Shown here piece by piece: positions 1-53,620 of a DNA stretch of 64,000 nt. Made by a program: the position numbers and the translations under genes. The DNA is from Cyanidioschyzon merolae (taxonomy: Eukaryota): assembly GCA_000091205.1 (NCBI GenBank), contig AP006499.2. The stretch is one strand, 5' to 3'. The notes under the pieces were generated by a model, which was given only the letters and a program-made list of their open reading frames with translations, ran no database searches and was not told the DNA's origin. Each line of letters begins with the position of its first letter. The stretch's first letter is position 1.

Positions 1-652
1 ACTGCGAGCGTCTACAAAACACTACCACTGCGAACGCTCAGTGAGCGCACCGGCTTGTCGCGTTCGGAGATCGCGCAAGTCATTCAGGATCTGCGTTCAG
101 GGCGGTGCTGGAGCCAGAGCGCAGGTGCTTTATGGACTCGCTGGTTCACAACGCTCGTTACACTGGACGCGAATGGCGAGCGGGTTTCGTTCAGGCGGCA
201 CGCTGATACAAGGACCGAGTCTGCTGGAGCTGTAGCGGTACCAGGGTCTTGCGGCATCTACCTGTCCCGTGCGATGTTGGTGGATGCTGGAGTGCATGCA
301 GCGTGTGCAGCAGATTTCTCCCGCAAATGCGCTTGGTTTCCCTGAGTATCATCGTCGTCGTCATCCTCATGATGACAATCGGAGGCTGGAATGCCTCGGT
401 CTATACCAAAACCTAATTCTATGACGTTCACCGTTTTCGAACGCCGTCGTCCACTGTTACGACACGACGAGAGTAGCTGCTCAGAAGCTCTCTGAAAAGC
501 GGATCGATGCACAGGAAGTTGCAACGCACACGAATCCTGCACTGTGCGTTGCAGCGCATCGCGGAGACCCTTCATGACCTAAAAAGGATGATGAGCCCCG
601 CGTCCAAGCGAATGTTCAGCTCGTGTACCGGTATTGCGCTATCTAGGGTCCG

Positions 653-1687
653 CTATCCGAACAATCGCCGTCGCTTGCGCGCACTGCGGGTATACGGCGC
701 AAGCCTCCACTCATCATCAGCATCTTGTTGCTCGAGCGTTCCGAGACGTATGCGGAACAGTCCTAAATCGAAACGGGGACCCAGTTCGATGAGTGCTTGG
801 TGCTGCTGGTGACCCTGGATTCGACCCGCACTCGATGAAGCGGTCGCAGTTCCCGCTTCTTCGTCGTCTGATGAATCATCCGCAGCGGCGGTGCGCCTCC
901 TCTCAACAATGTAATGTCGGAAAGATAGAATACCATCATATCCCTTATCAATGAATGCTACAATACGCTTCGAGTCTGGCTTGGGAACGGGAAACAGAAA
1001 TCGAAGCATGTTCTTCACCCGCATGCCCAGTCTACTCTGAAAGCTGCCCTCGAAGATCACATGGGGATACGCTTCGCTGAGTGGCGGCAGCGCAGCGTCC
1101 GGGCTGTTTTGGTGTTCGTGTCGAAGCATCTCCGCTACATCGTGTCGCATGACGACATTGGAGAGTGCGAAGTACGCCGTCGGACCCAGCGGCAAATGAC
1201 ATACGATGAGCGCATCGGGTTCGCCGCGCGTCTCGTGCAGCAACACCAAGTCCGTGAGCTGTTGCGCTCTGCCGAGCTCGATCAGGTCCTTTAGGATGAG
1301 ATTGCCGCGGTTCAGCCGCTGAGCGTTCGGAAAGAGGAACCGGACCTCTTTCGCAAACTGGCATAAGCGACTCGAGGGGTTCCTCGAGGTCGTGATCACG
1401 ATCTTCGGATCCGCAACGCCCGCTGTGGCGTACTCGTCATCCAGCATCAACCGTGTTGTTGCTAGCATTCGTATCGGATGACGAAGTGCCTCCTCGGTTA
1501 TCTGGACTTTCTCGTCTGCGTCGCTCGTGTCTCGCCGAGCGGACGGCGTCGAGCTCGCACCACCAGGGCGAGCAAGTCCTGGGGGTCCGCGCTGGCGGCT
1601 CGTCTCCGCCCCTGCTGCCGCTATTTCGAGCGCTCTTCTGTAAAGGTACTCTCGACGCAAACGAGCTTGCCTCTTTAGTGATATCAT
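653..1687 (-). CDS. IMP4: U3 snoRNP protein IMP4 (Brix domain)
   Basis: ORF 653..1756(-). Residues from internal ATG MISLKRQARLRREYLYRRALE... match IMP4 end to end (RLRREYLYR N-term; KIVITTSRNPSSRL...FPNAQRLNRG; HLPLGPTAYFALSNVVMRHD; FLFPVPK; C-terminal ELGPRFDLGLFRIRLGTLEQ...WRLAPYTRSARKRR). Start set at internal ATG 1685-1687. Track start 1756 is an upstream alternative start. Confidence 0.85.
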   Translation of the reverse strand: MISLKRQARLRREYLYRRALEIAAAGAETSRQRGPPGLARPGGASSTPSARRDTSDADEKVQITEEALRHPIRMLATTRLMLDDEYATAGVADPKIVITTSRNPSSRLCQFAKEVRFLFPNAQRLNRGNLILKDLIELGRAQQLTDLVLLHETRGEPDALIVCHLPLGPTAYFALSNVVMRHDVAEMLRHEHQNSPDAALPPLSEAYPHVIFEGSFQSRLGMRVKNMLRFLFPVPKPDSKRIVAFIDKGYDGILSFRHYIVERRRTAAADDSSDDEEAGTATASSSAGRIQGHQQHQALIELGPRFDLGLFRIRLGTLEQQDADDEWRLAPYTRSARKRRRLFG

Positions 1688-1991
1688 TGAAGTGTTCGGT
1701 TCGTAGTTGACTGAGGTAAGATGCAGCACGCAGTGTGTTAGCGCGATGCGCTGCACAAACGCCCGTGACGCGCCCTAATACCACGCCGCTGGACTCAGAA
1801 GCGGCTGCAACGGTTCTTTTCCGTGCAGATCTCGAGTGTCTCTTTGCGGGTGGATTGTTTTTCGCTGCCTGTACAAGCGCTGGTGACAAGCGTTCCTTCA
1901 AGCGTCCTTATCGAGTTAAAGAAGCGGTTCGCAGGAGAGAAGTTGTGCAGCGACAGCGCAACGCAGTTGGAGCGCTTTACATGAGACATGA

Positions 1992-4103
1992 TTGTATCTA
2001 AATGGAACAACAGAAACAAAAAATCCCTTGCCCCCAAGGCGTTGCCGTTCCTCCGCACTCTGTTCCTGCACGAGCGTAAGGTACCGCGTCCCAGCAGCAC
2101 GAAAACAACTGCAGCAGCTACTGGTGCCGCCACAACTTGTTGTTGCGTCCATGGCAAACAGCCTCGGCCTACCAGCAGTACCGCTGGAGCCGCGTCTGGT
2201 GCCGGATGCTGCGACTTGGCTCTCGGAGCGCTTCTCCAATGACGATGAAGAGGAGGTGACGCGGCTCGAGGAAGCGGTGTGTCTGCAGCTGGCGGCGCTG
2301 CGAGCGTTGCGGGCACCCCTGCCCCAGGGCATTGCTGTGTACCGGTGTCGAGCGCCCGGTTCACCGTCACGAAGTGCTGACGCTTCCTCAAGTCGTGGAA
2401 CTCGCAGCGTGCGTAGAACTGTGCAGCTTCGCCAGCGGACGCGAAGCGCTTACCGGCAGGCCAGCGGCACTACAGCAGCGAACACTGGCTTGCGCACCAA
2501 CCTCGACACGAGTATTGGTGCCGTTGATGAACACATCAACGACGAGTTGATCGATAGTCAAGAACTCGAAGAAGCAAGCACCGGTGAAACAGAGCCGCGG
2601 CCGGCGCACCGAGCGACGACAGTTGCGCATCGAGTGTTTATTCCACCGCGTTACGTCCTCCCGCATCATGCGCTGATATACGAACACACGGACTGGTATC
2701 GAGAACGAGTGCGTCTGGCCATGGAAACAAACAGTGGCCAGTACGCCTCCGCTGAGGCAAGCTCGGGTCGCGCGCCTGCTCCGCGGGCGCTCACGGTGTT
2801 CCCGGCACCTGCTGGTCGCGACCGCGAAACAGACTCATCGCCCAGGAGACCACGCGAGCGTCGGTTTCGTACACGCTTTTCCGGCCAACGTGAGGGTATC
2901 CTCGAAGATGCACTTGCAACCATACTTTTCCGCGATGAACGCACGGGCGCGGGAACCCCTCCCGCTGCAGAGATGCCTCTGGATCGGCAGCTAGATCGAG
3001 GACCTGGCCTGCCTGACAGTGCCGAGAGACTGCCGGCTCCTTTGCTTGGCTATCGCGAAGAGGTTCGTTCTCATCAGCGACGCGCATATGCGCAGCGTGA
3101 AGCGTTCGGCAGCCCGCCAACGTCCATGGTCCTCAGTGACTGGCTAGAGAGCCGTCGTCGCGACGTCGCGGACCCAGGCAGTGTATCACCAGCCGACGCA
3201 ATGTCGCTGTGGAGCGCACCCCGCGCACCTCAGAGGCACATACCAGGCCGTGGCGACGCAGCGCTCGGCGTCTATCGAGAGCCACGCACGGGGCAGCGGA
3301 GCCTCCAGAGACGCTCGACAGAGGTGTTGTCCACGTCTGTGGATACGGGTCGCATTCGAGGCCCGATAACAGCGAACGAGTCGGCGCCAGAGCTTTTACA
3401 TTCACCGCCTTTCCGAGCTGGATCGATCGGTGACGATTCCTTTGATGCCGGGAGCCTGCGGCTGACTGCCCGAGGACCGAGTCGAGCGCGCCTCTCGGGG
3501 CATGTGGCATCACGCACTCGTGGACTCCCCGTAGATCACATTTCGCCAGCAGATGCGTCTCTGCCCTTAGACGAATCGTTACAGACAGATGAAACGAGCG
3601 GGCGCGTTCATGGACGCGCTGCGCTTCATCGCATGAGGCGTAGCGGTCGAGAGCTCGACGTATCCTCAGTCGCGGATACGTTCCATAGCACATCGGCAGG
3701 CAGCGCGAGCCACCACGCTTGGACGAGGGCGCCCATGGACACTGCACGTTCGACAAGCACAGCTTTTGCATCGCCGTTAACCCTGGAGCACAGAGATTCC
3801 GCAGGTAGCTCGCCGGGTGACTTTGTTGTGAACGATTGGATGTCTGCAGGGGATCGTTCCTCGCGCACCGACCAGAGCCGAGGCGGTTTCCGGACGGGAA
3901 CCGGGTCAGCCGGGGATACCACCACGATAGAAGCGCTTGGTGGTCGACGGCATCGCGGACCCAGGGATCTGGTTGTGCGCATAGAAGAAACGCTGCGCAC
4001 GCGAGCCTGGGAACGATCCACCTCTGCGGATGCATCAGCGCGAGCTTCGGGTACTGCCCGCGCTCAGGTTCGCAATGAACGGCGGCATCTGGATTCATCG
4101 TAA
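1992..4103 (+). CDS. hypothetical Ser/Arg/Ala-rich low-complexity protein (coding status uncertain)
   Basis: 703-aa ORF with no recognisable domain. A 400-aa ORF (3133..4335) overlaps antisense. Length alone favours the + ORF. GC-rich DNA makes long spurious ORFs common. Confidence 0.25.
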   Translation: MYLNGTTETKNPLPPRRCRSSALCSCTSVRYRVPAARKQLQQLLVPPQLVVASMANSLGLPAVPLEPRLVPDAATWLSERFSNDDEEEVTRLEEAVCLQLAALRALRAPLPQGIAVYRCRAPGSPSRSADASSSRGTRSVRRTVQLRQRTRSAYRQASGTTAANTGLRTNLDTSIGAVDEHINDELIDSQELEEASTGETEPRPAHRATTVAHRVFIPPRYVLPHHALIYEHTDWYRERVRLAMETNSGQYASAEASSGRAPAPRALTVFPAPAGRDRETDSSPRRPRERRFRTRFSGQREGILEDALATILFRDERTGAGTPPAAEMPLDRQLDRGPGLPDSAERLPAPLLGYREEVRSHQRRAYAQREAFGSPPTSMVLSDWLESRRRDVADPGSVSPADAMSLWSAPRAPQRHIPGRGDAALGVYREPRTGQRSLQRRSTEVLSTSVDTGRIRGPITANESAPELLHSPPFRAGSIGDDSFDAGSLRLTARGPSRARLSGHVASRTRGLPVDHISPADASLPLDESLQTDETSGRVHGRAALHRMRRSGRELDVSSVADTFHSTSAGSASHHAWTRAPMDTARSTSTAFASPLTLEHRDSAGSSPGDFVVNDWMSAGDRSSRTDQSRGGFRTGTGSAGDTTTIEALGGRRHRGPRDLVVRIEETLRTRAWERSTSADASARASGTARAQVRNERRHLDSS

Positions 4104-4408
4104 AATGAATGATGCATCGTGGTAGTCGACGAGCTGACGCGTGAGAAAGACACTGGGAAGCTGTTTTGTAGGCGCAGGGCGACCCCGGTGGCGGCGCTCC
4201 GAGCGTCCGCGGCAGGCACGATGAATACGATGCACCGGTGCCCTTCAATCGATGTTGCCTGTAGATTTTAAAGAATGGCAATTTTAGGATTGGTAATGCG
4301 TAGCAGCATCTCGAAGGGAATGGTGGTGCTTTCATGGTTCACCGACGGCAACCGGGAATCCCTTGGATTCTCGTTACACCGGTGTCAGAATAAAATGCAA
4401 CGGATCGT

Positions 4409-5038
4409 TCAAATTGGGCGTACACTGTACGCCCTGGGTATCGTTCTAGTGTCATCGACACAGGCCTGTGGAGACTTTTTCATTTCTGAGACCGCTTCCT
4501 TCATCGCCCTCTTGTCTACGGCTCGAAATGAGGCGGGCTCTCCGGTCCTTCCTGCTCGGTTGTCGGCAATGGAAAGATGTTGAAGGCAGCGTTTCAAGTC
4601 CAGATTTCGCAGATTCGGACTGCTGCCAACGCAGTTCATGCAGAGGCGGAAGTTGCGCTCTACGCTTCGCTTGCCATTTTCACCTGATTGGTAGGGAGCC
4701 ATGGTATGCGCTTCGCAACGGTGACAGTAAAATGTACTCTTGTGTTCTGGTATGCCCATTATACGTTCTGCGTCGAGGAGCCTCCTGTGGTGCGTGAAGA
4801 CTTGCTCCATAGCTCGGTACATGACAGGTACCGAGGACTCGCATCGATGCCAGCTTCCGTTTCCGTACCGAGTCCTAGACGCTTTGATGACGGTAATCGT
4901 CTGGATGATCTCTTCGACAAGCTCTCCGTCTGCTGCACACGCAAGCGGATGCTGTACAATTGGATAGAGGATTTGTTCAACGCGACATTGCCCATTAGAG
5001 AACAAGTACCCGGAAGAAAATCCAGGCTGGAGAAACAT
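4409..5038 (-). pseudogene. possible TnpB-like relic (family C) lacking RuvC-III signature
   Basis: ORF contains LVEEI (RuvC-II-like), W(x11)YRA, and HKSTFYCHRCEAH(x23)CMNC zinc ribbon in TnpB order and spacing. Where D-NAA-NI is expected it reads RNLDLKRCLQHL. Lies in an AT-richer island immediately downstream of family A copy A1. Confidence 0.3.
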
Positions 5039-5344
5039 TCGAGAAAATTTGAACCGTGTACACTCACCTCATGCAAAGCGGTGATGCGCTCTGCACAGGA
5101 AGCGATCGCTGTGATGCCTGCATTCCTAGTCCAAGGCCCTTTTCCATGGAAAAGGAGGCAATGGGTGCTTCTGAAAGCATTTCCCGTTGGATATTTCATG
5201 CTGCTGTTGCGCTCAGCTTCGTCGATAGCGATAAATAGAAAAAGGAGGGATTGGTCTTTCGGATAGAATCGACGTTGATTGGACGTGACAAGTTTCGTCA
5301 ACTTCCGGCATGAGCTTGTGAGCAAGCCGATAAAGAACGACGTG

Positions 5345-6815
5345 GCATAATAATCTATGTAAATGCATTGTTCATGAAACAAAGAAAATGTCTCACGACC
5401 ATGAAGGTATATATACATACTGACGAGCAGACGCCTCCGAATCTTCTTTGATCGGCGGCTTGCCTTAGGTATCAGTTTCTCCCCATACACTTCGAGACTG
5501 AGAAGCTGCCCTACAAAGTTTGCTCGCGTCAGCTCATCGGGTCTTGTCTCCAGAACCGCACATCGTATGATATTGATGGCGGCGTTGAAGTCTTTGTTCG
5601 CGAACTCCATGCGTTTGTTGCCGCTGTTTGAACTCATCAATGCAAGGGTTGCTAGAACCCGCGTCCTGTGTGCCACCTGCTGCTCTTTCAGCAATCCGTG
5701 CTTTTCCATCGCCGAAGCCCTCCGCTGTGTTCTCCCTATCTCGACCATCTGGTGTGTATAACCCAGCTCATGCCTTAGATTTTTCATTTCTCAAAATGAA
5801 TGGGCTTCTTTATGCCCGTAGCTAAGGACCTTCCCCGAGGAAGAAGGACATGTTCAAGAAAAACGACATATGCCTCGGCGTGCCATCGTGTGCTGAAAGC
5901 TTCGGCAATTCGCCCCGTGGAGCGATCATTGCGTTTCAGGACAGAATACACTCCTTCAATGGGGCTGAATCACGGAGCGTATGGAGGAATGGAAGGCAGC
6001 TCTACTCCCAGATAGTATCGGCAAAATCTGGAACTCAAGGGGAATGGTAAAATACTACGTTGTTCAATAGAAGGACGTTGCCGGACTTGAGGAAAAAATG
6101 TTCAACAATTCGACAAAGTGTTCGCTGCTATTGAATGAGCCTTCTCAACGAGCGAATATGAGGACGCCAAATGAATCCACTCCAGCTAGAACAGATGATG
6201 ATGTCCTCGTTCTCCTCGAGCTCGATCTTGTATACAATGAGCTCTATCTCCGAGAAAATAAACATATACGATTGGACCGTTTCGTCTGAAGCAGTTCTCA
6301 TCGGCTGAAAAACAAACCGACGTGCCTGTGCTTCACACGAATCGAGAGGTCCCATGCATGTTGTCGCTGCGATCTCGGTGGAAGATAGCCGTTTTCGTGA
6401 ACCAGGACTGGTTTTGTATGAATGTATCCCGAGTTTCCAGGATCACACGAGCAAGCTGGTGAGAAACAGAGACACCCGCAATAACTACTATTATCGCGTC
6501 GCTTTCCTTAAAGCAATCAAGTGGTCGTTTTTCTAACATGGCCGACAACAAAGTTTTTACCAGTACCTGTTTTTGGAGCAGAGCGCGCATACCTGTTTCT
6601 TTCAGTGTTCTCGACCATCCTAGTATAGTAGTATGACTGACCTGAAGAAGGAATGCAGCCCTCGTTACCATGATCAGTAAATAATATGTATCGTGCATGC
6701 ATTTCGTCTACGATCGAATCGATACAAAGCATAGAAATGTCGATCTCGTACGATACACTGCGAAGAGGCATTTGATGACACGCAGCAGGCGCGAAACAAA
6801 ACTGACGTGAAAGAC
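5345..6815 (-). mobile_element. TnpB/Fanzor-like RuvC nuclease relic, family A copy A1 (frameshifted pseudogene plus about 240-bp 3' tail)
   Basis: Minus-strand translation gives KRMEFANKDFNAAINIIRCAVL (RuvC-III D codon at 5590-5592). Upstream are decayed Zn-finger, VPDFADTIW (6008-6034) and AGVDSFG (6166-6186) blocks in different frames. About 75-80% DNA identity to copy A2 over more than 1.2 kb, including the non-coding tail 5345-5590. Confidence 0.6.
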
Positions 6816-6853
6816 TATAACAATATGCATATAATTGCTACAATCTGCCTTTT

Positions 6854-8806
6854 TTGAGACAATCGCTCCTGAACGTCCCTGTGCGCTTACCAGCGAGCGT
6901 CAGCAGGCGCGCGCCTTGTACCCAGATCCGCCGTGGGGCGCCTGTCGGAGGTCGCCGCTACGCGACCGTATCTGCGAGCCACCACGCTGACCTGCACACT
7001 GCTGCATGCGTAGACGGTATGAACAGTGGAAACGAGTACGCCAGAGTGAGTCCTGGCGCTACGAGTGCCCCAGACGCACAAAGTGGACTTGGCGTGACGA
7101 CTGCTGGTAGCGAGGTAACCATAAAGGCGTGGAAGCAGACGGCAGGCGAGCGCTGCGCCGTGGGAAACGCGCTCGTGGCTGCCCACGAGCCGCACTGCCC
7201 GGTCTGCCCCGAGCCGACGAACAAAATTGTGCCTCGTCGGAAGATGGTACCCAGCTCGATGGCTGTGCAGCCGCAGCCTTTTCCGCACCAAGTCGGGGGT
7301 CACGGTGCGCTGGCACTCCACGGCGCTGGGCTGGTCAAAAAACCCCTGGTAGAGCGAGAGCTGGCCTTTTACGAGTACGTTTGGGGTGATCTAGTCGACA
7401 TATTTGAGAGACTGGATGACACGAGTGAAGACGGGCTGAATTTGCGCAGGAAGCTGGTGGCCCCACACAGCCCACGAAAACTCGAACGACTGCTATCGTC
7501 AGAGACGCGGGGGCGTGCGCTCGCAAACTTGCGCGACAGGCTTCAGTACCGCCGAATGAAAGCGGAGCGTCGCTGCGCTTTATGTCGACAAAACGCACCG
7601 GTTGGTTGTGGCTCGAGCGCTGGCACCAACAAGCTCTGTACGATGCAGTTCTCTGACCTGGTGGTTCAGACGCTGCGCGAGTTCACCGCCCGCTACTATG
7701 GTATCGTTTCCCTCTACCGAGTACGCGGCGAATGGAGGTACACCCGCGAGCTCCCATCATCTAGTGCTATCGAACTCGAAGCCAATGACTCGAGTGACTC
7801 GGCGATAACAGGCCTGCCTGATGCCGCGGAGCGACGTTCTCCAGCCTCCTCCGAAGACACCAGTTCGGGACTCGTAGAGCTGTGGCATGCGGAAAACGGC
7901 AAGGCCCTGGACGTGAACCCGTGGGCGCGAGTCTGCTTCGAGCGCTCGTTTGCGTCCTATGCCTCGCACCGTGGGACACGGAGTCCTCGCGTCGGCACGA
8001 CCCCCGGGGCTGACGCGAACCACATGGACCCTGACCGAGGCGTCGTAGTGGAAACCGGCGTCACGAGCTCGGACCCAGACGATGCCGTGCAACATGATTT
8101 TTTAGTGCTCGAGGATCTGACGTTTCCTTTTCGTTACCCGTCAGTTCTGGACGTTAAGGTTGGTACGCGGGACTATGACGACGAGGCAACCGAGGAGAAA
8201 CGCCGTCGGCACATCGAAAAATGCCGGATGACGACGAGCGCTCGCTATGGCGTGCGGTTAACCGGTATGCAAGTATTCCAGCCAGAGCGACGCACCTACC
8301 TTTGCCATGATAAGTACCATGGCCGTCGCTTAAAGGATGAAGAGCAGCTGCAGGAGGAGCTGCAGCAGTACCTCGACAACGGCCAACGGAGTCGCGTTGC
8401 TGCCCTGCGCGCCGTTCAGGTTGCGAACGCCTTTCGACAACGCCTGGAAATACTGCGTGATTTCGTCGCCAGACAGGAAGAATGGCGGTTCTACAGCTCG
8501 AGCCTTTTATTTATCTACGAAGGAGACAGCGTTGAGGCACAAGACGCTCCTGTGCAGCCTGCAAGCGACGCGAACGCTGCGACTGCCTCCGAAGTGGCGT
8601 CCGCGTGCGCTGCCCGGAACGGCAGCAAAAGCGGAAACGCTACCTCCGTTTGCCTGAAAATGATTGACTTTGCCCATACCCAGCGGAGCAACTGCGATGA
8701 TGGCCCAAACGATGACGGCTATTTGCTCGGTATCGAAACCATGATTCGTTTATTTTTCAACGCGGCGCAACGATTCGCCGAGCGCGGAAACCAGTGGCAT
8801 CCGTAA
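6854..8806 (+). CDS. inositol polyphosphate kinase (IPK/IP6K family)
   Basis: QVGGHG; PSVLDVKVGTR (P-x-x-x-D-x-K-x-G signature); SSLLFIYEGD; MIDFAHT. Start uncertain: 6854 is a non-ATG track start, first ATG near 7019. Confidence 0.8.
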   Translation: MRQSLLNVPVRLPASVSRRAPCTQIRRGAPVGGRRYATVSASHHADLHTAACVDGMNSGNEYARVSPGATSAPDAQSGLGVTTAGSEVTIKAWKQTAGERCAVGNALVAAHEPHCPVCPEPTNKIVPRRKMVPSSMAVQPQPFPHQVGGHGALALHGAGLVKKPLVERELAFYEYVWGDLVDIFERLDDTSEDGLNLRRKLVAPHSPRKLERLLSSETRGRALANLRDRLQYRRMKAERRCALCRQNAPVGCGSSAGTNKLCTMQFSDLVVQTLREFTARYYGIVSLYRVRGEWRYTRELPSSSAIELEANDSSDSAITGLPDAAERRSPASSEDTSSGLVELWHAENGKALDVNPWARVCFERSFASYASHRGTRSPRVGTTPGADANHMDPDRGVVVETGVTSSDPDDAVQHDFLVLEDLTFPFRYPSVLDVKVGTRDYDDEATEEKRRRHIEKCRMTTSARYGVRLTGMQVFQPERRTYLCHDKYHGRRLKDEEQLQEELQQYLDNGQRSRVAALRAVQVANAFRQRLEILRDFVARQEEWRFYSSSLLFIYEGDSVEAQDAPVQPASDANAATASEVASACAARNGSKSGNATSVCLKMIDFAHTQRSNCDDGPNDDGYLLGIETMIRLFFNAAQRFAERGNQWHP

Positions 8807-10399: not shown

Positions 10400-11800
10400 G
10401 TGCAGCAGTGAGGGTCTATCGATATATGTAGGTGGATTTGGGATTTTTGGGTCATCTTTTGGGGTGGTTCGCTTGACGCTTTGCGGTTGGAATGAAGTTA
10501 GGTTACCGTAAACGAGCTGATTCGCAGTGCCATGGAACAGGGTTCGAAAACGATCTGGTATTATGATGCAGTACACAAGGTGCACAGCGCCACGCTTCGC
10601 GTTGTTTTCCCGTGAATCATGCATTACACGAGCATTCTTCGAGATTTTTACGGCTGTGTTTCATGGAAACCCGTAGGCACAGTGATTCGGGCCGATGGAT
10701 TTACAAGAAAAACGTTCGGCCTCGTTTCTTGACGACTTGTTCACAAGCTCTTGTCGAATGTTCACTGAAATACGAAGGTAAAATAATCGACTCCGTTCGA
10801 GAGAAAAATCCAAGGCTCTATGTGGCCATGGATGAAGCGGCGTTCGATAGCAGCATGATGCCTCTTAGGGGCTATGCTGCCGGAGGCCCTGGTGTCTTCA
10901 GTTTTCATGGAACGGGGTCTTGGACCTCGACTTGAGTCATCGAAGCGATCGTTACCAGGGGAGCGCGCGTCACCGCTTCGCAAAAAAGGAGCATGAACGG
11001 ATCGAAATTACTCGATTTTTCCTCCAAACTGGATTTCTGTTTTCGCACTTGTTCCATCGCAGAAAACATTGCGCTCCATAAACCCTCAGTAGAATGGAAC
11101 AACGTGCGCCGGATTGTGCGATCGATAGAGAACTTGTCGGGGAATCGTCCAGAAAAAGCCCGTGATCGCTGGTACAGCGTCGAGGGCGTTATCGAAGGAG
11201 GGTATCGACCATCATCCGCTGTGCTCGTCAAGGGCATGTACCGAGTGATAAAGCGTGCCTTTATGCGCCATAGGCCGGTGCCCAGAGAAGTACATACGGT
11301 GGACATGTCGGAACGCATTCAAGTTTCGCGGCTGCGACAGATTCTATACAAAGAAGATAAAAACGAGAATCGAATCGTAGATTGCAACTTTTGCATCTGC
11401 ATGAAATGCGTAAACAACATACGGAAGCCGATTAGGTATGCCGGTAGCACTCGTATGAATATCCTTCGACTGCTGACAAAAGAGCAGGAGCAACGAGAGA
11501 ATCCGGCGGATTGAAAGCCCGGCATAAGAGAGAGGGGATGAAAACAGTCGTAGAAAAAGCCGGCAAACGCTGGTTCGATGACAATGTGAAGAGACCAATA
11601 CCCTTGCGCGTACACCCGAGTTAGCAAAGTGGACCGGTTCCATTCCATTCTGGAATGGGTGTATCTCAGTGCTCGCGTGTTGATGGCACTGGGAAGCGAC
11701 CCAACGTTCAATGTGTACGTCCGAGCTGGAACACCTCTTCCACGCTAGTCTGGCAAGAGAGTATCTCAGATTTCGCGTATTGCCAGAGTCGGAGCGGGCG
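10400..11800 (+). mobile_element. TnpB-like RuvC nuclease relic, family B copy B1
   Basis: ORF 10993..11514 reads ...RIVRSIENLSGN (RuvC-II-like E), W(x11)YR, C-NFC-ICMKC zinc cluster, then STRMNILRLLTKE in place of D-NAA-NILR. Upstream ORF has YVAMDEAAFDS (RuvC-I-like). The 3' tail 11514-11780 is about 75% identical to the B2 tail. AT-richer than flanks. 5' boundary approximate. Confidence 0.5.
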
Positions 11801-15528: not shown

Positions 15529-16378
15529 GACCGCCAAGCTCAAGCCCTAAAACGAAACTCTTGTTCAAGAGTCTCTCGCAAAGCGAGCACTAATCACGCT
15601 GCAAACCACCAACACACATGCACGATCTATGTCTTTGTCAACTGAACGAAGCTCCATGCCAGGGCGAGCCACGTGTACGAGGACTGCGAGCGCGACGCCG
15701 CACGTCCGTCCGCCGCTCGAACACGACATGCGGCACGCGTGCGAAACGACGCCTGGCACCGGCTGCAAACACGCGATCGCCACGCGCGGCACACGCTGGG
15801 AATCGCTTCCGAGAGCAGTGCATGGTGATTATGGGCGTTTGTTACCATGAAGTTCAGAAAGGTGGAGATTCGTGATTCTAGCTCTGCGATTCGTCGAACA
15901 GTGCCCAGTGCGCAGCGCGCACGATGGGGCAACGCCGGCTGTCATCAGCGCCTCGAAGCAATTGAACAGCAGCTCGAAGGCACGACGAGTAGAAACTGAC
16001 CATTTACTAGGAACGAAGGGAGAGTGCTTCGTTATCCATGCGCGGCAAGGGATGAGAGGTGGTAGATTTTTGCGTGAATAGGAAACTTTACTTGGTGGGC
16101 GTAAGCTCCCGCGATCCGGGCTCGTACGCGGTGCGTACCCGCAGTGGCGAGTGCGTTGGCGACGCCCGAGCAGTTCGTCCGCAACCCAGTGTTTTCTGGG
16201 ACGAGGAGAAAGGTGCCTGGCGTCTGGGCATCGCCCTGACCTCTATCGTCCTGTAGCGTGTCGTTTCGTGCTATCTCGAGCACTAGGTCTATTTGAGCGG
16301 CCTGCGGGATCCCGGGATAACGAAGCAATTCGAACACGAGTCTCATGAACCACACCTCGAGCTGGCGCCTTCCGTAGT

Positions 16379-16840
16379 ATGGCGAAACCGCTCCGTATTC
16401 TTGCTGTGTCCGTAGCGGTGCCACAGGTGCTACTGGGAGCGCTCAAGCCAAGCTCGGCGCACGATAAAACGTACGAAAAGAAGTATCTCCGAGAGGAAGT
16501 ATGCGAAATCGAACTGGGAGGTCTGGGGCCGTATAATGGTCGCTTTCCAGAATACGAATATCCATCGCGCAATCGAGGATCTCTGGTCGGTGGAAACGTT
16601 ACGCTTATCGAGAACATCAACGGCCGCACGTCGCTCAGGCGAGCAGTGTTTCCCAGTGTGCTGCTCATCCTGCGCTGGCAGCGTCACCGGTGCACGCAAC
16701 GCGCACGTGCAGTTGCTGGACGCCAAGAACGCCCAGAGCGTGCCCTGAAGCGGACAAGGTATCTAACAGGCCTCACACTGTCCAGAACAGTTGTAAAAAG
16801 CCGTTGGCCATGCCCACGCGTACCAATCCCCTGCTCCTGA
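16379..16840 (+). CDS. hypothetical small protein with N-terminal hydrophobic segment
   Basis: 153-aa ORF, MAKPLRILAVSVAVPQVLLGAL... No recognisable homology. Sits in an otherwise gene-free gap. Confidence 0.15.
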   Translation: MAKPLRILAVSVAVPQVLLGALKPSSAHDKTYEKKYLREEVCEIELGGLGPYNGRFPEYEYPSRNRGSLVGGNVTLIENINGRTSLRRAVFPSVLLILRWQRHRCTQRARAVAGRQERPERALKRTRYLTGLTLSRTVVKSRWPCPRVPIPCS

Positions 16841-27077: not shown

Positions 27078-28310
27078 GCAACTGAATATGTTGGCGATGG
27101 TGTACCAGGAAGCGAAAACGTATCGCGAACATGGGGTAAATGAATATCCACCCGGAGACATGTGCCTGCCTTTTTCGACCGGGCTCCTGCTGTCGGCTTT
27201 CGTTTTCTCCTTGCACACTTCGAACATCAGAGGCGGTGCGACGAAGTTAGGTTTCGTCAGCTCTGCGTGTCTCGTCTTGAGCGCTGCACATCTCCTGATA
27301 TTGATAGCAGCGTTGAAGTCTCGGTTCGCAGACTCCATGCGTGCAGTGCCTCTGGAGCTACTCACTCATGCAAGGAATGGTACAACTCGCGCCCTGTGTG
27401 CCACTACAGTCTCGTGATCGTCTCGTCGATGAAACACCTTTGCTCTCCGATTTCCCCTCATCTTCATCGTCAGTTGCTCTTCTTCGCTCGACGGTCGCAC
27501 AGAAGAGGATGTTTTCCGGTTTTATCGGATAGCCAGCGATGTCGGTCCTTCAGAATCCCCGAATTCCATGCTCATACCTTTCCCTTCTATTTTTATTTCT
27601 TCAAAAAAACACAGTTGTTTATGCCCTCAGATGAGGACCCTCCCGGAAGGAGACGGTCTTGCAGAAGAACGACGAAATGTGCCCTGGTATCACCGTGTGG
27701 TGAACGCTTCAGCGCTTGGCGCAGTGGCGCAATCACTAGGTTTCGTCATAGAAACGCCTGCTCTTCATAGGACTGAACCACCGAATGTACGGAGGAATAA
27801 AAAGCCGCTCTACCCTGACAGAATCAGCGATAGATCGAACGCAAGTGGAATGGAGAAATACCACAATATCCAACGGAAAGACGTCGTCAGACCTCAGGGA
27901 AAAGTCTTCAATTGTTCGATAAAATGGTTCGTGCTGTTGTATGAGCCTTCTCTACGAGCGAAACTGAGGTCGCCGAATGGTTCCACTCCCGCACGAACAG
28001 GTGGTGTCCTTGTTATCTACGAATTCGTTCGTTGAGAATATCAGTTTTTGGCGCTGATCGCATACGCTTCTTTCTTTCAGTATTCCTCAACTACCTGAGT
28101 TCGTATGGTATGGCTGACGTAAATGATGCATGCAGTCCTCCTTGCACTATTCAGTAAAAATATATCTCTGATAGACGATTCAATTACGATCCACACAGTA
28201 CATTGCATCGTGAGTCCGATCTCCTGCTCTGCACTGCGAAAAAAGCATTCGTTGACACGCAGGAACGTCGGAACGGAATTGACTTGAACAAATTCGCAGC
28301 TGAACATCAG
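27078..28310 (-). mobile_element. TnpB/Fanzor-like relic, family A copy A2
   Basis: ARMESANRDFNAAINIRRCAAL (RuvC-III motif near 27320). Collinear DNA homology to A1 from the 3' tail (27080-27320) through VRSIADSVR and AGVEPFG blocks to about 28310, with a roughly 325-bp indel relative to A1. No intact ORF. The 3' end lies within about 10 bp of the RBBP6-like stop codon (27070-27072). Confidence 0.55.
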
Positions 28311-41509: not shown

Positions 41510-41829
41510 CGGCGTTTGTAGACGGCGCTTCGGAACAAGGCGGTTTGTGAGCACTCCTTACATTCCCGACTCGGAGAGCAGCTTCGAAAAGAGCGGGGTT
41601 GGGAGCGGAACTCAAGTCGCACGAGTAAACGGGTGCTAAGGAGCGGTCCCGCATAACCGGTGAACGTCCCTGACGCTGAAATTGCGCACCAGCGACTGTT
41701 TTTCGGCAACCAAGTGCGCAGTTCAGTTGCGCTGTGCGTAACCTTTGGAGTCTGCTGGTTTGTACAAGCGAGATACTATATTTTGCACGAAGTGTGACAT
41801 ATTTTCTGGTCGCTCTTGAACCGATTAGA

Positions 41830-49940: not shown

Positions 49941-50103
49941 GGTGGCGGCTGAGCACGCACCAGCACCGCCGCTCTAAGTCGAACGACGCCAACGGTGCAC
50001 AGTAGTGGCGATAAACCCTCCCTAGACAAAACGTCTCCAACTGACGTGTAGACGCCTCCCCGTGTTTTTTGACCGGCCACCCACTACTGTTTCCAATTTC
50101 TTC

Positions 50104-51310
50104 TCATATAGTTAACCTTTTGGGAGGTTGTCTCACAAAATTCTCTCTTGTCATCTCTGGAAGTCTTTTTTCCATCACCACACATTTCCTGATATTAATT
50201 GCGGCGTTAAAGTCTCGGTTCACAAACTCCATCCGTTTCTTGCCATCATTGATTGTACTTACTAATGCAAGTCGCCCATGAACGTTCGCCCTCCTTTCCA
50301 TTTGCTATCCCGTCAGCGGTCCGTATTTTTCATATCCTCAGGGCTCCGCTGGCACTTTTCCATCTCGAATCTCTGAAGTGTGCATCCCAGCTCATGGTGT
50401 ATATACAATGCTCGGAACTCATCGATCGGTAGCGGAACGAAACGCCTTGCGCACTCCTTGTACGTTCTCGCCGGTGGAGCTGGTGTAGTCCCTTTTTGGG
50501 TCTTCCAGCGTCCTGCTCCGTATGCCACTACGAGCCTCTGACGTTCATCCTCCTTCAAGCCACTCAACTGATTGAAAAAGTTGGCAAACGCCCGCTGCTT
50601 CCCACAATACAGATTCATTCGCAGACGAGCCCACCGAGGCTTTGTATACCCTTTCCACAGCGCATCCCAATGAGCAACGCGACCTTCCATGAATTTTCGA
50701 AAAGCTTCAAAGTCCGCTCCTCGACTCGTCACCTTGCTCAAAGCCTCCAGGTGCTCTTTCACTTATGCGTTCCACGTCTCGATTTTATTCCTTGCATTCA
50801 TGATTCTGGAGTCTCGATAGTATCTTGCTCTCGAGAACTTTAAAATACTCATGCCTTTCTGAAGTAAGTTGCCGTGGATACCATCTTCCGCACGCTTGGG
50901 TACTGCGATGGTTATGATACTTGTGCCCCAGGGTCCGCGCCAACGACAAAGTCGTTATCCTGCACTTTCTGCGTCGCAGAATCCGCCTCCTTCTCATCTT
51001 CATGCTTCGTTACGGGCGAGGCCGAGCATGGAACAAGACGATCCGCCTTCAAGCGCCGACGGTGTACACACATGGATACCCCATCGGTTTCGATCACCCC
51101 AGTGAATACCTTTTGTTCGCTGACTTTCAAACGTTTGATTTCGAAGATATTCTTCTGGTACTTCTCCCGGTTTACACCGGTGAACTCCTTCCTGCTAACC
51201 TTGAACTCCGGACAGATCTCCCTCATGATGCCATGAAGGACTGCGGAATCGATGGTCACGAAATGTGCCCTGATGTTGCACAACGGAACCACGTTGAAGC
51301 GCTTCTCCAT
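50104..51310 (-). mobile_element. TnpB/Fanzor-like relic, family A copy A3 (diverged subfamily)
   Basis: Three consecutive minus ORFs in different frames: ...[12 protein letters not shown] (RuvC-I-like, near 50920-50950); RLVVAYGAGRWKTQKGTTPAPPARTYKECARRFVPLPIDEFRALYIHHELGC (50313-50762); KKRMEFVNRDFNAAINIRKCVV...NFVRQPPKRLTI* (50104-50301). 12-bp frame break at 50301/50313. May extend 5' to about 51900. The 3' end is about 160 bp from the coiled-coil gene ATG. Confidence 0.6.
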
Positions 51311-52299
51311 TAGGAACGCTTCCGTCTCTCAGACGCTTCATTGTTCCCGCGATTCAGCTCCATCTCCGCCTTGGGTTCGAGCTCTCGGTCTAGGTGCACG
51401 AAATAGCGCATAATTAGGGGATATCATCATTTTTTCACCTTTTTTCATATCTGATACCTTTTCTGCTGGGTTGACCGGCCTCAAGGGTGCACGGTGCTCA
51501 TGAATAGTCGCACGGATTATAGAATCCTCATTCGTGCACCTGCGTGATGTCTTCTTGTCGACGAACTCGATCTCCTGTTCAAGCTGGCGATCGTCCGTCA
51601 TCCCATTGGTGATGGCCCATCTTTCCTTCGCGAGAGAGACCCGGTTGGAGTGCAAACACGGCGCATATCATGAAGCCCTGGAGGTTCATGGTTAAACGGT
51701 CTCCAAGTTCGTTAGGTACCGCATGGCCCCGTGGGTGTAAATATTCCAGTCCCTCTGCATCGAGTACCGTAGAAGCTGTAGAAGGGATGCTTTTCGTGGA
51801 GGGCATGCACCCGCTCATTTCCCCTCGAGGTTTCCCCTGTGGCGAGCACCAGGTGGCGGAGAAGGGTCCTGCTGAAAAATTCTTCCGGAACCTCGGCTGT
51901 TTCGATGTCGGCCACGTCTTCATTCATCTCCTTCACCAAATGCATTAGCCCTGACGAAGCCTTTATAACACTCATGGAGTAAGACGCAACACGGTTTCTG
52001 GGAGTCTCTTGCAACGCTTCCTTGGACGGATGCTTGATATGTATAAGATGGCAGGCTTTGACAACCATCACGTCGTTGTGCCGTCTTTCTTGCAGCCTTT
52101 GACGTCGGGCCTCCTTCATTCGCTTCTTTGTCTCGTCCTGTTCCTCTTCGCACTGGACTGTGTGTTCGTTTGTATCCGCCAGCTGGCGACACTGGGCCTC
52201 CAGGAGCCTCCACTTTCACTCGCATAACTTTCCTTTTTAGTTTTTTTTCTGAGAAAGAACGCACTTTGAATGCTTCAGGTATAAACAGCGAAAAATCAC

Positions 52300-53620
52300 T
52301 TGAATACACTTACTTGAGGGTTGGAATACGATTGAACTGAAAAGCATACTTTGCTACGACTTCAATGCAAATACACCGCGTGCAGCAGAACAACACGCTC
52401 TTGATACCGATCGCGTTTCCGTTCAAGAGCAGCATGCGCGAAGTGTCTCGTGTAACTGGCTGATGTCTCTGGTGCACGTGTCCAGCCCCCTACAGAAAAA
52501 AAAACAGAGACTCACGACTAACTGGCAACGATATGACAATTTCTTTCCCCCCTCTAAGGTAAACGTTAAAAGGCGAAAAGGTTTCCATATTGTCGAAAGT
52601 TTATTTTATAGGCGAAACGTCCCGCGAGCCGGACGTGTCTGCCAGACCAGTGCTTCATGCGACCCCAGTGGAAGGTGCTTGCTGGAAACCCGAGCAACTC
52701 GTGCGAAATGCAGTTTATTATGGGACTAGGAGCGGGTATGCTGCGTCAGGGCGTCGGCCTGGTCGCAGTTATCTCCTTACATATCGCTTGGCGCTGCCGC
52801 AGGCACTAGGTCTGTCTGCAGAGCTTGCAGGCTCCCAGAAAGATTATGTACTCTGGCGCTGTATCGGGAAAAGCGCTCCTCGATTGGACGCCCTCTGTGG
52901 TACGGTAACGCGGTTTTGTCTCCGCGATCCATCTGTTCCAGCGGTTTAGGCGCCACTACGGGTGCTCATGGTAGGTACTCGCGCTCGCTAGAACGTAAAA
53001 ACCGACCAGTATGTCCGCGATGAAGCATAGGTAATGTAACTTGGGAGTAGGGAGTTTGATGGATACTTCAATGCGCACTGAAAAAAATAGGAAAAGAAAA
53101 AGCGCATAATCGGCGAACGCTGGCCAATGTCAACGTTTTGTCAATTAAAAAAATCTGCGAATACCTGACCACAACGAAATGGCACCGATGCGACGGGCGC
53201 GCTCAGTTTCCACCCCGAAAAGACGGGAATGACAAGCGCTGCACAAACCGCAACGACCGCTTGTGCGTGATACGTATGAGCAAGAGCCTGGAGCAGTGAG
53301 ATAGGGACCTGGACGCTGCCATCAACATTCTTCGACTGCTGCGAATGAAGCTGGAGTCAAAACGAGAGACCAACGAATTAAAAACCGGAGGTATGAGGGA
53401 GCGAAAGGAGGCTATTGCAGAAAAGGTCCACAAATCCAAAGTATCAATGACTACAGGAAGAGACCAAAACTCTAGCGTGCGCACCCGAGTGAGTAACGCG
53501 GAACCTTCCATGGTAGTCTGCCGTGGGTACCGGGGAGCCCCGTGTCCATCGCGAGACACTCTCGCAGAGCGTCCGCCTTGTTTTCGGAGGAAGCAGGCGG
53601 AAAAGCGGCAACGCCATGCA
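52300..53620 (+). mobile_element. TnpB-like relic, family B copy B2
   Basis: + strand 53300-53341 translates DRDLDAAINILRLL (near-canonical TnpB RuvC-III) preceded by HRCDG...KRCTNRNDRLC (decayed Zn finger) in the same frame after a stop. Upstream GFHIVESLFYRRN (RuvC-II-like E, about 52595) and W...VEG...AVYY in a second frame. Tail 53350-53600 is about 75% identical to the B1 tail. Carries about 0.4 kb extra internal sequence relative to B1. Confidence 0.5.

What the first reader, a model, noticed from the sequence alone, without database searches (positions are those of the whole stretch)
5345..6815. Family A TnpB/Fanzor-like RuvC-nuclease relic A1, head-to-head with the IPK gene
Minus-strand translation gives KRMEFANKDFNAAINI, the D-x-NAA-x-NI RuvC-III signature of TnpB/Fanzor/Cas12. 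Farther upstream, in shifted frames, are a decayed CxxC region, VPDFADTIW and AGVDSFG (RuvC-I-like) blocks. The same signature recurs in two other minus-strand copies in this window. Eukaryotic TnpB homologues (Fanzor) are RNA-guided nucleases, so a multi-copy family in this genome deserves a search for intact paralogues and a guide RNA. A1 ends about 40 bp from the IPK ORF start, so IPK 5' regulatory DNA may be element-derived.
Basis: partly seen in the sequence, partly recalled or inferred. Interest (0 to 1): 0.8.

Follow-up and report, generated by a model that had tools for sequence, protein, structure and literature searches.

The report
Dead Fanzor transposon fragment, already known
This is a broken, non-functional copy of a jumping-gene family (Fanzor1 "CMe-1") described in this red alga in 2013; only the tail of its nuclease gene survives, and the upstream blocks read as nuclease motifs belong to a second dead gene, a Tc1/mariner-type transposase.

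Summary
The window is Cyanidioschyzon merolae 10D. The DFNAAINI motif is real at 5569-5592 (-) and recurs at 27297-27320 and 50191-50214. It belongs to Fanzor1 family CMe-1/CMe-1A, published by Bao & Jurka 2013 (about 150 copies). Membership of the family in Fanzor1 is solid: profile hits to solved Fanzor1 structures (E 3.8e-20), an AlphaFold model whose seven best PDB matches are Fanzor1, and an invariant D/E/D triad.

A1 is not a frameshifted full-length relic. Only the last ~135 codons (5416-5772) are Fanzor. RuvC-I, RuvC-II and the 3'-terminal hairpin module are absent.

A1 and A2 are different internal deletions of a transposase+Fanzor1 element, also seen in environmental relatives (L070, L083). 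That link may classify the previously unclassified CMe-1A.

The annotated IPK start codon is ~200 bp from A1, not 40 bp. A1 is ordinary dead transposon DNA.

The parts
5416..5772 (-). A1, Fanzor1 C-terminal relic. It covers the last ~135 codons plus part of the 3' UTR of a CMe-1-type element and matches CMe-1A consensus positions 2736-3092. The frame is open over 5377-5778.
   Evidence: nhmmer E=1.5e-53. Protein HMM E=9.5e-37. tblastn E=1.7e-30. blastn to the published consensus 72% identity, E=3.5e-48.
5569..5592 (-). RuvC-III motif D-F-N-A-A-I-N-I. It is the only catalytic motif left in A1.
   Evidence: It aligns to the column of D559, which is 97% conserved in the Fanzor1 clade alignment.
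5773..5810 (-). Remnant of the Fanzor 5' UTR and start-codon region. The internal-deletion junction lies at about 5772/5773, at a CATGAGC microhomology. It joins the UTR/ATG region directly to ...HELG and removes RuvC-I and RuvC-II.
   Evidence: Four-way DNA alignment of A1, A2, L070 and L083. Homology to the consensus starts exactly at CATGAGCTGGG.
5868..6686 (-). Relic of a ~300-aa Tc1/mariner-type transposase (HTH + Pfam DDE_3, DD34E), with at least 3 frameshifts and several stops.
   Evidence: Stitched translation vs Pfam DDE_3: E=9.1e-10, 39 bits against a 28.6-bit cut-off. Unstitched frame: E=7.4e-4. tblastn of the intact 303-aa homologue P0384: residues 14-284, E=1.3e-10. Coordinates.
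6749..6821 (-). 5' terminal segment of the A1-type element (TATAGTCTTTCACGTCAG...). It is homologous to CMe-1A consensus positions ~785-857 and to the 5' ends of A2, L070 and L083. Similarity among the copies stops upstream of it.
   Evidence: nhmmer hmm 127-199, E=0.0016. Four-way alignment.
27154..28288 (-). A2, a sister copy of the same DDE+Fanzor element type with a different internal deletion (Fanzor profile position 414 joined to 2326) and a ~340-bp deletion inside the DDE relic.
49962..53051 (-). A3, a near-complete CMe-1A element (consensus positions 84-3145, 84% identity) with a few frameshifts and stops. It has the 5' TE-N2 part and the 3' hairpin module and carries no DDE relic. Its 3' end lies about 30 nt upstream of the ATG of a same-strand host ORF.
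   Evidence: blastn; nhmmer; CM hit 49962-50022.

Best explanation
A1 (about 5416-6821, minus strand) is a dead, internally deleted copy of a two-gene DNA transposon of Cyanidioschyzon merolae.

The progenitor carried two genes in the same orientation. Upstream was a ~300-aa Tc1/mariner-type (HTH + DDE_3, DD34E) transposase gene. Downstream was a ~734-aa Fanzor1 gene of the published CMe-1 family. Fanzor1 is a TnpB-like RuvC nuclease that, in characterised relatives, is guided by an omegaRNA transcribed from the element's 3' end.

In A1 the transposase gene has decayed through frameshifts, stop codons and a change of the second catalytic D to N. A deletion at a CATGAGC microhomology fused the Fanzor 5'UTR/ATG region to codon ~600 (...HELG). 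This removed the REC/WED region and the RuvC-I and RuvC-II residues and left only the RuvC-III tail. The last ~65-75 nt of the element, which hold the conserved terminal hairpins, are also missing.

A1 therefore can encode neither a nuclease, nor a transposase, nor the putative guide-RNA scaffold. It is neutral transposon debris fixed in the CMQ072C-IPK intergenic region.

Shown: the homologies, the boundaries, the missing parts, and the presence of A1 at the same site in six environmental strains. Inferred: the RNA-guided activity of intact family members, and that the DDE enzyme once mobilised the element.
For: Organism and family. Exact protein matches identify C. merolae 10D. The CMe-1A consensus and CMe-1 protein from Bao & Jurka's supplements match A3, A1 and A2.

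Fanzor1 identity of the family. The 78-sequence clade profile hits PpFz1 9cf0 at E=3.8e-20, SpuFz1 8gkh at 1.9e-12 and GtFz1 9cer at 4e-6. D318 and E490 are invariant, and the RuvC-III D559 column is 97% conserved. The AF2 model (pLDDT 82.9) has Fanzor1 chains as its seven best PDB matches (E 4e-13 to 3.5e-9), followed by TnpB and Cas12.

Only the C-terminus is present in A1.

DDE relic. (Pfam DDE_3). In one search the reconstructed consensus finds 68 proteins down to E 9e-46, nearly all of those outside the Cyanidiales-type metagenome group annotated PF13358, some also PF01498. (tblastn of P0384, E=1.3e-10). (P0384 and P0390 are HTH + DDE_3).

Same arrangement in independent loci. A1, A2, L070 (DDE relic at 1558-2546 directly upstream of a full-length Fanzor ORF starting at 2592) and L083. 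Database proteins P0381 and P0383 read through from the DDE C-terminus into Fanzor sequence.

Same gene order as the published Mariner-Fanzor1 element PUl-1, whose transposase is homologous (pairwise E=9e-8).

3' module absent from A1 and A2.

A1 is present at the orthologous site at ~99% identity in six metagenome strains. Its 342-aa chance ORF is broken in some of them.
Against: No terminal inverted repeats or TA duplications could be found for A1, A2 or A3, although Tc1/mariner transposition requires TIRs. The 3' end of the DDE-bearing subtype was never seen intact: A1 and A2 are truncated, and L070 and L083 are cut by contig or locus ends.

Most CMe-1A copies, including A3 and 50 full environmental elements, have no DDE relic. 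The DDE gene could therefore be a secondary acquisition rather than ancestral.

No intact DDE gene of this lineage was found in Cyanidiales-type data (best is P0379, itself decayed). No expression data were available, so a regulatory or RNA role for A1 is not excluded.
Confidence: 0.85

Rival explanations
1. A1 is a full-length Fanzor/TnpB gene decayed by frameshifts, with RuvC-I (AGVDSFG), a zinc-finger remnant and RuvC-III all still recognisable along 5345-6815.
For: The RuvC-III motif is genuine. The AGVDSFG string superficially resembles the family's RuvC-I motif VGADPGN.
Against: Family and clade HMMs, run with --max at E<=100, and tblastn at word size 2 find nothing colinear upstream of 5778. 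The DNA profile jumps from position 2204 straight to the 5' UTR. The blocks in question match Pfam DDE_3 and an intact 303-aa transposase. The family has no CxxC zinc finger that could decay.
Confidence: 0.03
2. The DDE relic and the Fanzor fragment are two unrelated transposons that became neighbours by nested or adjacent insertion. The DDE gene was never part of, and never mobilised, the Fanzor element. CMe-1A would then move by another mechanism, for example a hairpin-dependent, Helitron- or IS605-like one.
For: No TIRs or TSDs were found (Bao & Jurka). Most copies lack the DDE relic. The family has a conserved 3'-terminal hairpin, a feature of Helitron and IS200/605-type ends rather than of mariners.
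Against: At least four sequenced loci in different genomic contexts share the same 5' terminus, the same DDE-to-Fanzor-UTR junction and the same orientation. Two more loci are implied by read-through proteins. The composite therefore multiplied as one unit. The sequences flanking the DDE relic (consensus ~785-857 and ~870-905) are contiguous in DDE-less CMe-1A. This is what a deletion of the DDE gene would produce. Published Mariner-Fanzor1 elements have the same layout.
Confidence: 0.15
3. A1 has been co-opted. It would supply promoter or 5' regulatory DNA to the divergent IPK gene, or produce a functional small RNA or peptide from the 342-aa ORF at 4759-5787.
For: A1 is fixed at the same site in all six environmental strains examined. 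Its 5' end lies ~200 bp from the IPK ATG in a compact genome.
Against: Sequence identity in A1 (98.6-99.7%) is no higher than in the neighbouring non-coding DNA and slightly lower than in the flanking genes. The 342-aa ORF is split in several strains and is absent from the C. merolae annotation. There is no Rfam match. The family's RNA module is absent.
Confidence: 0.07

Closest known systems
Fanzor1 family CMe-1 / element CMe-1A of Cyanidioschyzon merolae (Bao & Jurka 2013, Mobile DNA 4:12; PMC3627910)
   Same: Same genome and same family. A3 is 84% identical to the published 3169-bp consensus over 3076 bp. A1 and A2 match its 3' part. The protein sequence is that of the published 734-aa CMe-1.
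   Different: A1 and A2 carry about 1 kb and 0.7 kb of DDE_3 transposase relic between consensus positions ~857 and ~870. The published consensus lacks this. They lack the TE-N2 5' part and the last ~65-75 nt. They are more diverged (72-75%) than the ~80% typical of the family. The paper lists the family's class as unknown and mentions no transposase.
Mariner/Tc1-Fanzor1 composite elements (PUl-1, PUl-2, PGv-1; Bao & Jurka 2013)
   Same: Same gene order and orientation: a ~300-aa DDE transposase at the 5' end and Fanzor1 at the 3' end. The transposases are homologous in the D...E region (pairwise E=9e-8).
   Different: PUl-1 has 24-bp TIRs and TA duplications (supplement table). None could be found here. 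Here every transposase copy seen is dead.
Solved Fanzor1 nucleases SpuFz1 (8GKH), PpFz1 (9CF0) and GtFz1 (9CER); Saito et al. 2023 (PMC10432273)
   Same: Intact relatives of A1 share the fold (Foldseek E 4e-13, TM up to 0.62), the RuvC D/E/D triad and an ORF that runs close to the element's 3' end, where those enzymes' omegaRNA is encoded.
   Different: Only 13-15% sequence identity. The CMe-1 clade lacks the CCCC zinc finger of the NUC/TNB domain (1 of 78 members has any CxxC there). No RNA or cleavage data exist. A1 itself retains only the final fifth of the protein.
Bacterial TnpB (ISDra2, 8H1J) and Cas12f
   Same: RuvC-III motif and core RuvC fold (Foldseek E 4e-3).
   Different: The relationship is too distant for sequence methods. 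There is no Pfam Cas12f1-like_TNB (formerly OrfB_Zn_ribbon) hit for the CMe-1 proteins. There is no TnpA Y1 or serine recombinase partner.

Membership tests
Fanzor1 (the CMe-1 family as a whole, judged on near-intact relatives) | RuvC catalytic triad: D (RuvC-I) ... E in DEFRTS (RuvC-II) ... D in RD-x-NAA-x-NI (RuvC-III) | tested here: met
   D318 and E490 are invariant, and the D559 column is 97% conserved, in 78 clade members. They align with the motifs of PpFz1 and SpuFz1.
Fanzor1 (the CMe-1 family as a whole) | Sequence or fold similarity to experimentally characterised Fanzor1 | tested here: met
   Profile vs PDB: 9cf0 at E=3.8e-20, 8gkh at 1.9e-12, 9cer at 4.3e-6. The AF2 model's seven best Foldseek hits are Fanzor1 chains.
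Fanzor1 (the CMe-1 family as a whole) | C4 zinc finger between RuvC-II and RuvC-III (part of Bao & Jurka's defining motif; CCCC in SpuFz1) | tested here: not met
   Only 1 of 78 clade sequences has any CxxC in that interval. No conserved Cys or His columns are present. Pfam PF07282 reaches only E=0.0023 in one distant member.
Fanzor1 (the CMe-1 family as a whole) | omegaRNA scaffold encoded at the element's 3' end | tested here: inconclusive
   A 62-nt two-hairpin terminal module is found in 78 copies. 79.5% of cells are paired against 35-61% for slid controls. 9 pairs change on both sides, and the covariation score is reached by 1 of 500 shuffles. However, the alignment was fitted to the model. 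Thermodynamic z-scores are mixed, from -0.3 to -4.5. There is no Rfam hit and no RNA data.
Fanzor1 (A1 itself as a functional member) | Possession of RuvC-I and RuvC-II residues and of the REC/WED domains | tested here: not met
   A1 matches only profile positions 508-642 of 678, equal to consensus nucleotides 2736-3092. The DEFRTS codons lie 24 nt upstream of the deletion junction and are absent.
Fanzor1 (A1 itself as a functional member) | 3'-terminal RNA/hairpin module | tested here: not met
   The covariance model R1 finds no match in A1 or A2 at E<=0.01. The only window hit is A3, at 49962-50022. nhmmer stops at profile position 2563 of 2628.
Fanzor1 | RNA-guided double-strand DNA cleavage | not testable with these tools
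   This needs biochemistry. It is inferred only from homology to SpuFz1 and relatives (PMC10432273).
Tc1/mariner (IS630-Tc1-mariner) transposase, for 5868-6686 | DDE_3 catalytic domain with DD34E spacing, preceded by HTH DNA-binding motifs | tested here: met
   Pfam DDE_3: E=9.1e-10 for the stitched translation and 7.4e-4 for a raw frame. The four-copy consensus restores LLLDN...(34)...PIEG and finds ~300-aa DDE_3 (+HTH_Tnp_Tc3_2) proteins. tblastn of P0384 residues 14-284 covers its HTH region. In A1 itself D2 is mutated to N and the frame is broken.
Tc1/mariner element (the whole transposon) | Terminal inverted repeats and a TA target-site duplication | tested here: not met
   No inverted repeat sits at the termini of A1, A2 or A3. 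The 5' flanks of the four copies share no TA. The 3' end of the DDE-bearing subtype was never recovered, so the test is incomplete for that subtype.
CMe-1A (Repbase-type family of Bao & Jurka) | Nucleotide similarity to the published 3169-bp consensus | tested here: met
   A1: 72% over 359 aligned columns, E=3.5e-48. A3: 84% over 3076. A2: 75% over 143.

The most novel reading that the evidence does not exclude
A1, A2 and their environmental sisters L070 and L083 preserve the ancestral autonomous form of the C. merolae Fanzor1 element: a Tc1/mariner-type DD34E transposon carrying a zinc-finger-less Fanzor1 as its second gene. This would assign CMe-1A to a superfamily, since it was left unclassified in 2013 (no TIR, no TSD). 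It would imply that the ~150 DDE-less copies are deletion derivatives that kept spreading, or were kept, with only the Fanzor gene and a hairpin-bearing 3' end.
Probability: 0.5. Interest if true: 0.35.

Novelty: already known. Interest (0 to 1): 0.18.

Why it matters
For the finding as stated, it matters little. Fanzor1 in C. merolae, its copy number and its consensus have been public since 2013, and A1 is one of its most degraded copies.

Two by-products may interest transposon and genome-editing specialists.
- Transposase link: a minority subtype links this unclassified Fanzor1 family to a Tc1/mariner transposase. This adds a red-algal case to the known pattern of Fanzor1 riding on DDE transposons.
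- No zinc finger: the whole clade, with at least 78 representatives at 50% clustering, lacks the C4 zinc finger treated as part of the Fanzor/TnpB signature. It nevertheless keeps the catalytic triad and a confident Fanzor1 fold.

Near-intact copies from acidic hot-spring metagenomes could be candidates for thermo- or acid-tolerant RNA-guided nucleases. That is speculation until it is tested.

Tried and rejected
- **Direct family scans.** Pfam and NCBIfam scans of the stitched A3, A1 and A2 translations and of five near-full-length homologues gave no TnpB/Fanzor hit. The precomputed label PF26935 is only a DUF (DUF8286).
- **Narrow profile vs PDB.** A profile of close relatives (75-95% identical) found nothing in PDB. 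Success needed the exhaustive representative search and a broader alignment.
- **Fanzor residues in 5800-6800.** I looked with the family HMM, the clade HMM and tblastn at word size 2. Only noise-level, non-colinear hits appeared, including a tempting DPGNSGYI at 6444-6421 (E=7.6). I rejected these.
- **Empty-site search for A1's termini.** All six environmental strains recovered carry A1. The exact-match look-up of the window's own IPK protein found no contig.
- **TIR search.** Nothing at the termini.
- **RNAalifold on a MAFFT alignment of the 3' ends.** It missed the terminal hairpin because the variants are out of register. I replaced it with single-sequence folds and a covariance model. 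Support is modest, not decisive.
- **An alternative helix.** CGCCA...TGGCG, seen by eye, conflicts with both modelled hairpins. I did not pursue it.
- **Rfam.** No family matches in 4100-7020 or 49800-50500.
Full report
**Where the window comes from.** Five long ORFs of the window are identical, residue for residue, to annotated proteins of Cyanidioschyzon merolae strain 10D. These include BAM81998, BAM82002, BAM82004, BAM82010 and BAM82011, all on a 1,232,258-bp record. The gene left of the finding is CMQ072C (BAM81994, 2151-4103). The 'IPK' gene is BAM81995 (595 aa) and starts at ATG 7019. The genome is intron-poor and about 56% G+C, which explains the long uninterrupted frames.

**Checking the observation.** On the minus strand the translation ...GNKRMEFANKDFNAAINIIRC... 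is present, with the D-x-NAA-x-NI motif at 5569-5592. The same motif occurs at 27297-27320 (A2) and 50191-50214 (A3). DNA repeats connect the three sites.

The match is far beyond chance:
- An HMM of 120 database relatives hits 5377-5778 at E=9.5e-37.
- A nucleotide profile of 50 complete elements hits 5772-5416 at E=1.5e-53.

The strings VPDFADTIW (6034-6008) and AGVDSFG (6189-6166) also exist. The finding's upper boundary of 6815 agrees with where similarity to sister copies begins, at 6811-6821.

**What the family is.** A3 is the best copy. Stitched across two frameshifts, it finds 185 proteins at 51-78% identity, almost all unnamed predictions from JGI metagenomes. Pfam and NCBIfam give no hit for it or for near-full-length homologues. 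A narrow profile finds nothing in PDB.

An exhaustive HMMER search with that profile found 1438 relatives. I built an alignment of 78 of them at 29-42% identity. It has D318 and E490 invariant and the D559 column 97% conserved (P0004 numbering). These lie in the GxDPG, DEFRTS and NRDxNAAxNI motifs.

Three lines of evidence then place the family in Fanzor1:
- The profile hits solved Fanzor1 proteins: Parasitella 9CF0 at E=3.8e-20, Spizellomyces 8GKH at 1.9e-12 and Guillardia 9CER at 4.3e-6.
- An AlphaFold2 model of P0004 (mean pLDDT 82.9, pTM 0.79) has seven Fanzor1 chains as its best Foldseek PDB matches (E 4e-13 to 3.5e-9, TM up to 0.62). ISDra2 TnpB and Cas12 enzymes follow.
- The RuvC triad aligns with that of PpFz1 and SpuFz1.

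The family is therefore a bona fide Fanzor1 clade, with one departure. Only 1 of 78 members has any CxxC between RuvC-II and RuvC-III, so the C4 zinc finger is missing. That finger is part of the published Fanzor/TnpB signature (PMC3627910) and is present in SpuFz1 (PMC10432273).

**It is already published.** Bao & Jurka (Mobile DNA 2013, PMC3627910) list one Fanzor1 family in C. merolae, CMe-1A. They report about 150 copies, each ~80% identical to a 3169-bp consensus, and a 734-aa protein. They found no TIRs, could not determine TSDs and left the class unknown. The 5' 635 bp equal another repeat, TE-N2_CMe.

I took the consensus from their supplementary file and mapped it onto the window:
- A3 = 53051-49987: 84% identity, consensus positions 84-3145.
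- A1 = 5772-5419: 72% identity, positions 2736-3092.
- A2 = 27395-27256: 75% identity.
- Solo TE-N2-like copies lie at 55163-55862, 16082-16600 and 33507-33959.

**What A1 really contains.** Fanzor similarity in A1 is confined to the last ~135 codons. The family HMM, the clade HMM (both with --max, E<=100) and tblastn at word size 2 give nothing colinear upstream of 5778.

The nucleotide profile shows why. A1 matches profile positions 2204-2563 at 5772-5416. The only other match is positions 127-199 at 6819-6749.

The roughly 1 kb in between is shared with three other sequences:
- A2, at 70% identity.
- The environmental locus L070 (1558-2546). There it sits directly upstream of a full-length Fanzor reading frame that starts at 2592.
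- The environmental locus L083 (6777-7619).

This 1 kb is a dead transposase gene. The evidence is:
- A natural 143-aa ORF in L083 matches Pfam DDE_3 at E=2.3e-5, and the frame-stitched A1 translation matches at E=9.1e-10 (39 bits, cut-off 28.6).
- Raw single frames of A1, L070 and L083 each hit the same model at colinear positions (7e-4, 4e-4, 2e-4).
- A majority consensus of the four copies restores ...LLLDNVVFYHS...(34)...FIPPYAPWFNPIEGVFS....
- That consensus finds 68 proteins. Among them are many ~300-aa DDE_3 proteins at 35-42% identity, some also carrying HTH_Tnp_Tc3_2.
- One intact example, P0384 (303 aa), aligns by tblastn to window 6686-5868 over its residues 14-284 at E=1.3e-10.

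VPDFADTIW lies between the second aspartate (mutated to N in A1) and the glutamate.

**How A1 and A2 arose.** The four-way alignment shows a common 5' terminus (TATAGTCTTTCA...). The transposase relic follows, then ~40 nt that correspond to the Fanzor 5' UTR and start codon.
- In A1 this UTR runs straight into CATGAGCTGGG (= HELG, consensus position 2736). The sequence ATGAGC occurs at both deletion endpoints, which indicates a microhomology-mediated internal deletion. It removed about 1.8 kb, including RuvC-I and RuvC-II.
- In A2 the N-terminal ~55 codons remain (27612-27402 = profile 214-414). A different deletion joins them to profile position 2326.

A1 and A2 are thus independent deletion derivatives of an L070-type element.

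The sequences on either side of the transposase relic (consensus ~785-857 and ~870-905) are contiguous in ordinary CMe-1A. The simplest reading is that CMe-1A lost the transposase gene. A secondary capture cannot be excluded.

Database proteins P0381 and P0383 read from the transposase C-terminus into Fanzor sequence, which implies further loci with the same junction. The layout, with transposase 5' and Fanzor1 3', is that of the published Mariner-Fanzor1 element PUl-1. The PUl-1 transposase is detectably homologous (pairwise E=9e-8). Against a classical mariner, no TIRs or TA duplications were found.

**The 3' end and the guide-RNA question.** Across environmental copies, similarity ends sharply ~260 nt after the NRD codons. 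The last ~60 nt form two hairpins. The terminal one keeps pairing through different sequences: TTCGA/TCGAA, TTCTA/TAGAA, TTTTC/GAAAG and TTTTG/CAGAA.

A covariance model of this module finds 78 copies in the loci. On the resulting alignment:
- 79.5% of cells pair, against 35-61% for slid controls.
- 9 of 15 pairs show changes on both sides.
- Only 1 of 500 shuffles reaches the covariation score.

The alignment was fitted to the model, and single-sequence z-scores are mixed. I therefore rate a structured 3' RNA (or DNA) element as likely but unproven. Rfam has nothing here.

In the window the module occurs only at A3 (49962-50022). A1 and A2 stop ~65-75 nt short of the element end. The region 5345-5590 proposed for a small RNA therefore lacks the conserved scaffold end.

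**Context and selection.** A1 fills part of an unusually long (2.9 kb) intergenic region together with an unrelated repeat at 4519-5329. Six environmental strains carry A1 at the same place with 98.6-99.7% identity. This is no better conserved than the adjacent non-coding DNA and slightly worse than the flanking genes. The 342-aa ORF (4759-5787) that runs out of the Fanzor tail is split in some strains and is absent from the annotation. A1's 5' end is ~200 bp from the annotated IPK start codon. An effect on IPK regulation cannot be tested here.

**Verdict.** The observation of a TnpB/Fanzor RuvC-III signature in three copies is correct, and the family assignment is right. The family is already known in this very genome. 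A1 is one of its most degraded members, with one catalytic motif of three, no N-terminal four-fifths and no terminal module.

The new points are corrections and side observations:
- The upstream 'RuvC-like' blocks are a dead Tc1/mariner-type transposase.
- A DDE-bearing subtype may explain the origin of the unclassified CMe-1A.
- The clade lacks the canonical zinc finger.

Interest is low.

Noticed in passing
window 55163-55862 (+), 16082-16600 (-), 33507-33959 (+): Three solo copies of the ~650-bp repeat that forms the 5' part of the published CMe-1A consensus (TE-N2_CMe). They are 71-79% identical to it and have no Fanzor sequence attached. They explain the inverted repeats I1-I4.
   Followed up: partly
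window 53300-53329 (+), within about 53246-53485: A possible fourth, very decayed Fanzor C-terminal relic on the plus strand (DRDLDAAINIL), just beyond A3's 5' end. HMM E-values are only 0.11-1.7, so it is unproven.
   Followed up: partly
alignment A2 (78 clade members); P0004 residues 490-559: The whole Fanzor1 clade containing CMe-1 lacks the C4 zinc finger between RuvC-II and RuvC-III. Only 1 of 78 members has any CxxC there. The catalytic triad is kept and the AF2 fold is confident.
   Followed up: partly
window 4519-5329, with copies at 10902-11411 (opposite strand) and 59354-59427; loci L007, L009, L010, L034, L037, L038, L045, L048: An unrelated, unclassified ~0.8-kb repeat abuts A1's 3' side. 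Its 209-aa ORF (4409-5038, minus strand) has no Pfam match and is not an annotated gene.
   Followed up: partly
window 49962-49930 and L004 5998-6055: In A3 and in L004 the element's 3' end lies within ~30-60 nt upstream of the start codon of a host gene in the same orientation (a coiled-coil ORF in the window, an SMC gene in L004). This could reflect target preference or promoter activity of the element end. Only two cases were seen.
   Followed up: no
window 34900-36114 (-); L004 814-2710: A reverse-transcriptase (RVT_1, E=5e-20) relic of a retroelement. A related copy lies next to a Fanzor element in L004.
   Followed up: partly
L084 2373-2421, L023 4878-4924: Some environmental copies end in a different, much longer perfect hairpin (CCGGCGAGCACGCGC-TCGT-GCGCGTGCTCGCCGG, -35 kcal/mol) instead of the usual terminal stem. 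They may be a variant 3' end subtype.
   Followed up: no
L014 2575-4908, L010 831-3146: Among 80 environmental loci only two have Fanzor frames open for more than 700 codons, and both are defective at the N-terminus (lost start codon, or a frameshifted first ~90 residues). Truly intact copies are rare in this sample.
   Followed up: partly
window 41734-42924 (+): A chloroplast-type ATP synthase gamma subunit with an N-terminal extension (MQAFVGTF...). It was the clue that the window comes from a photosynthetic eukaryote.
   Followed up: no
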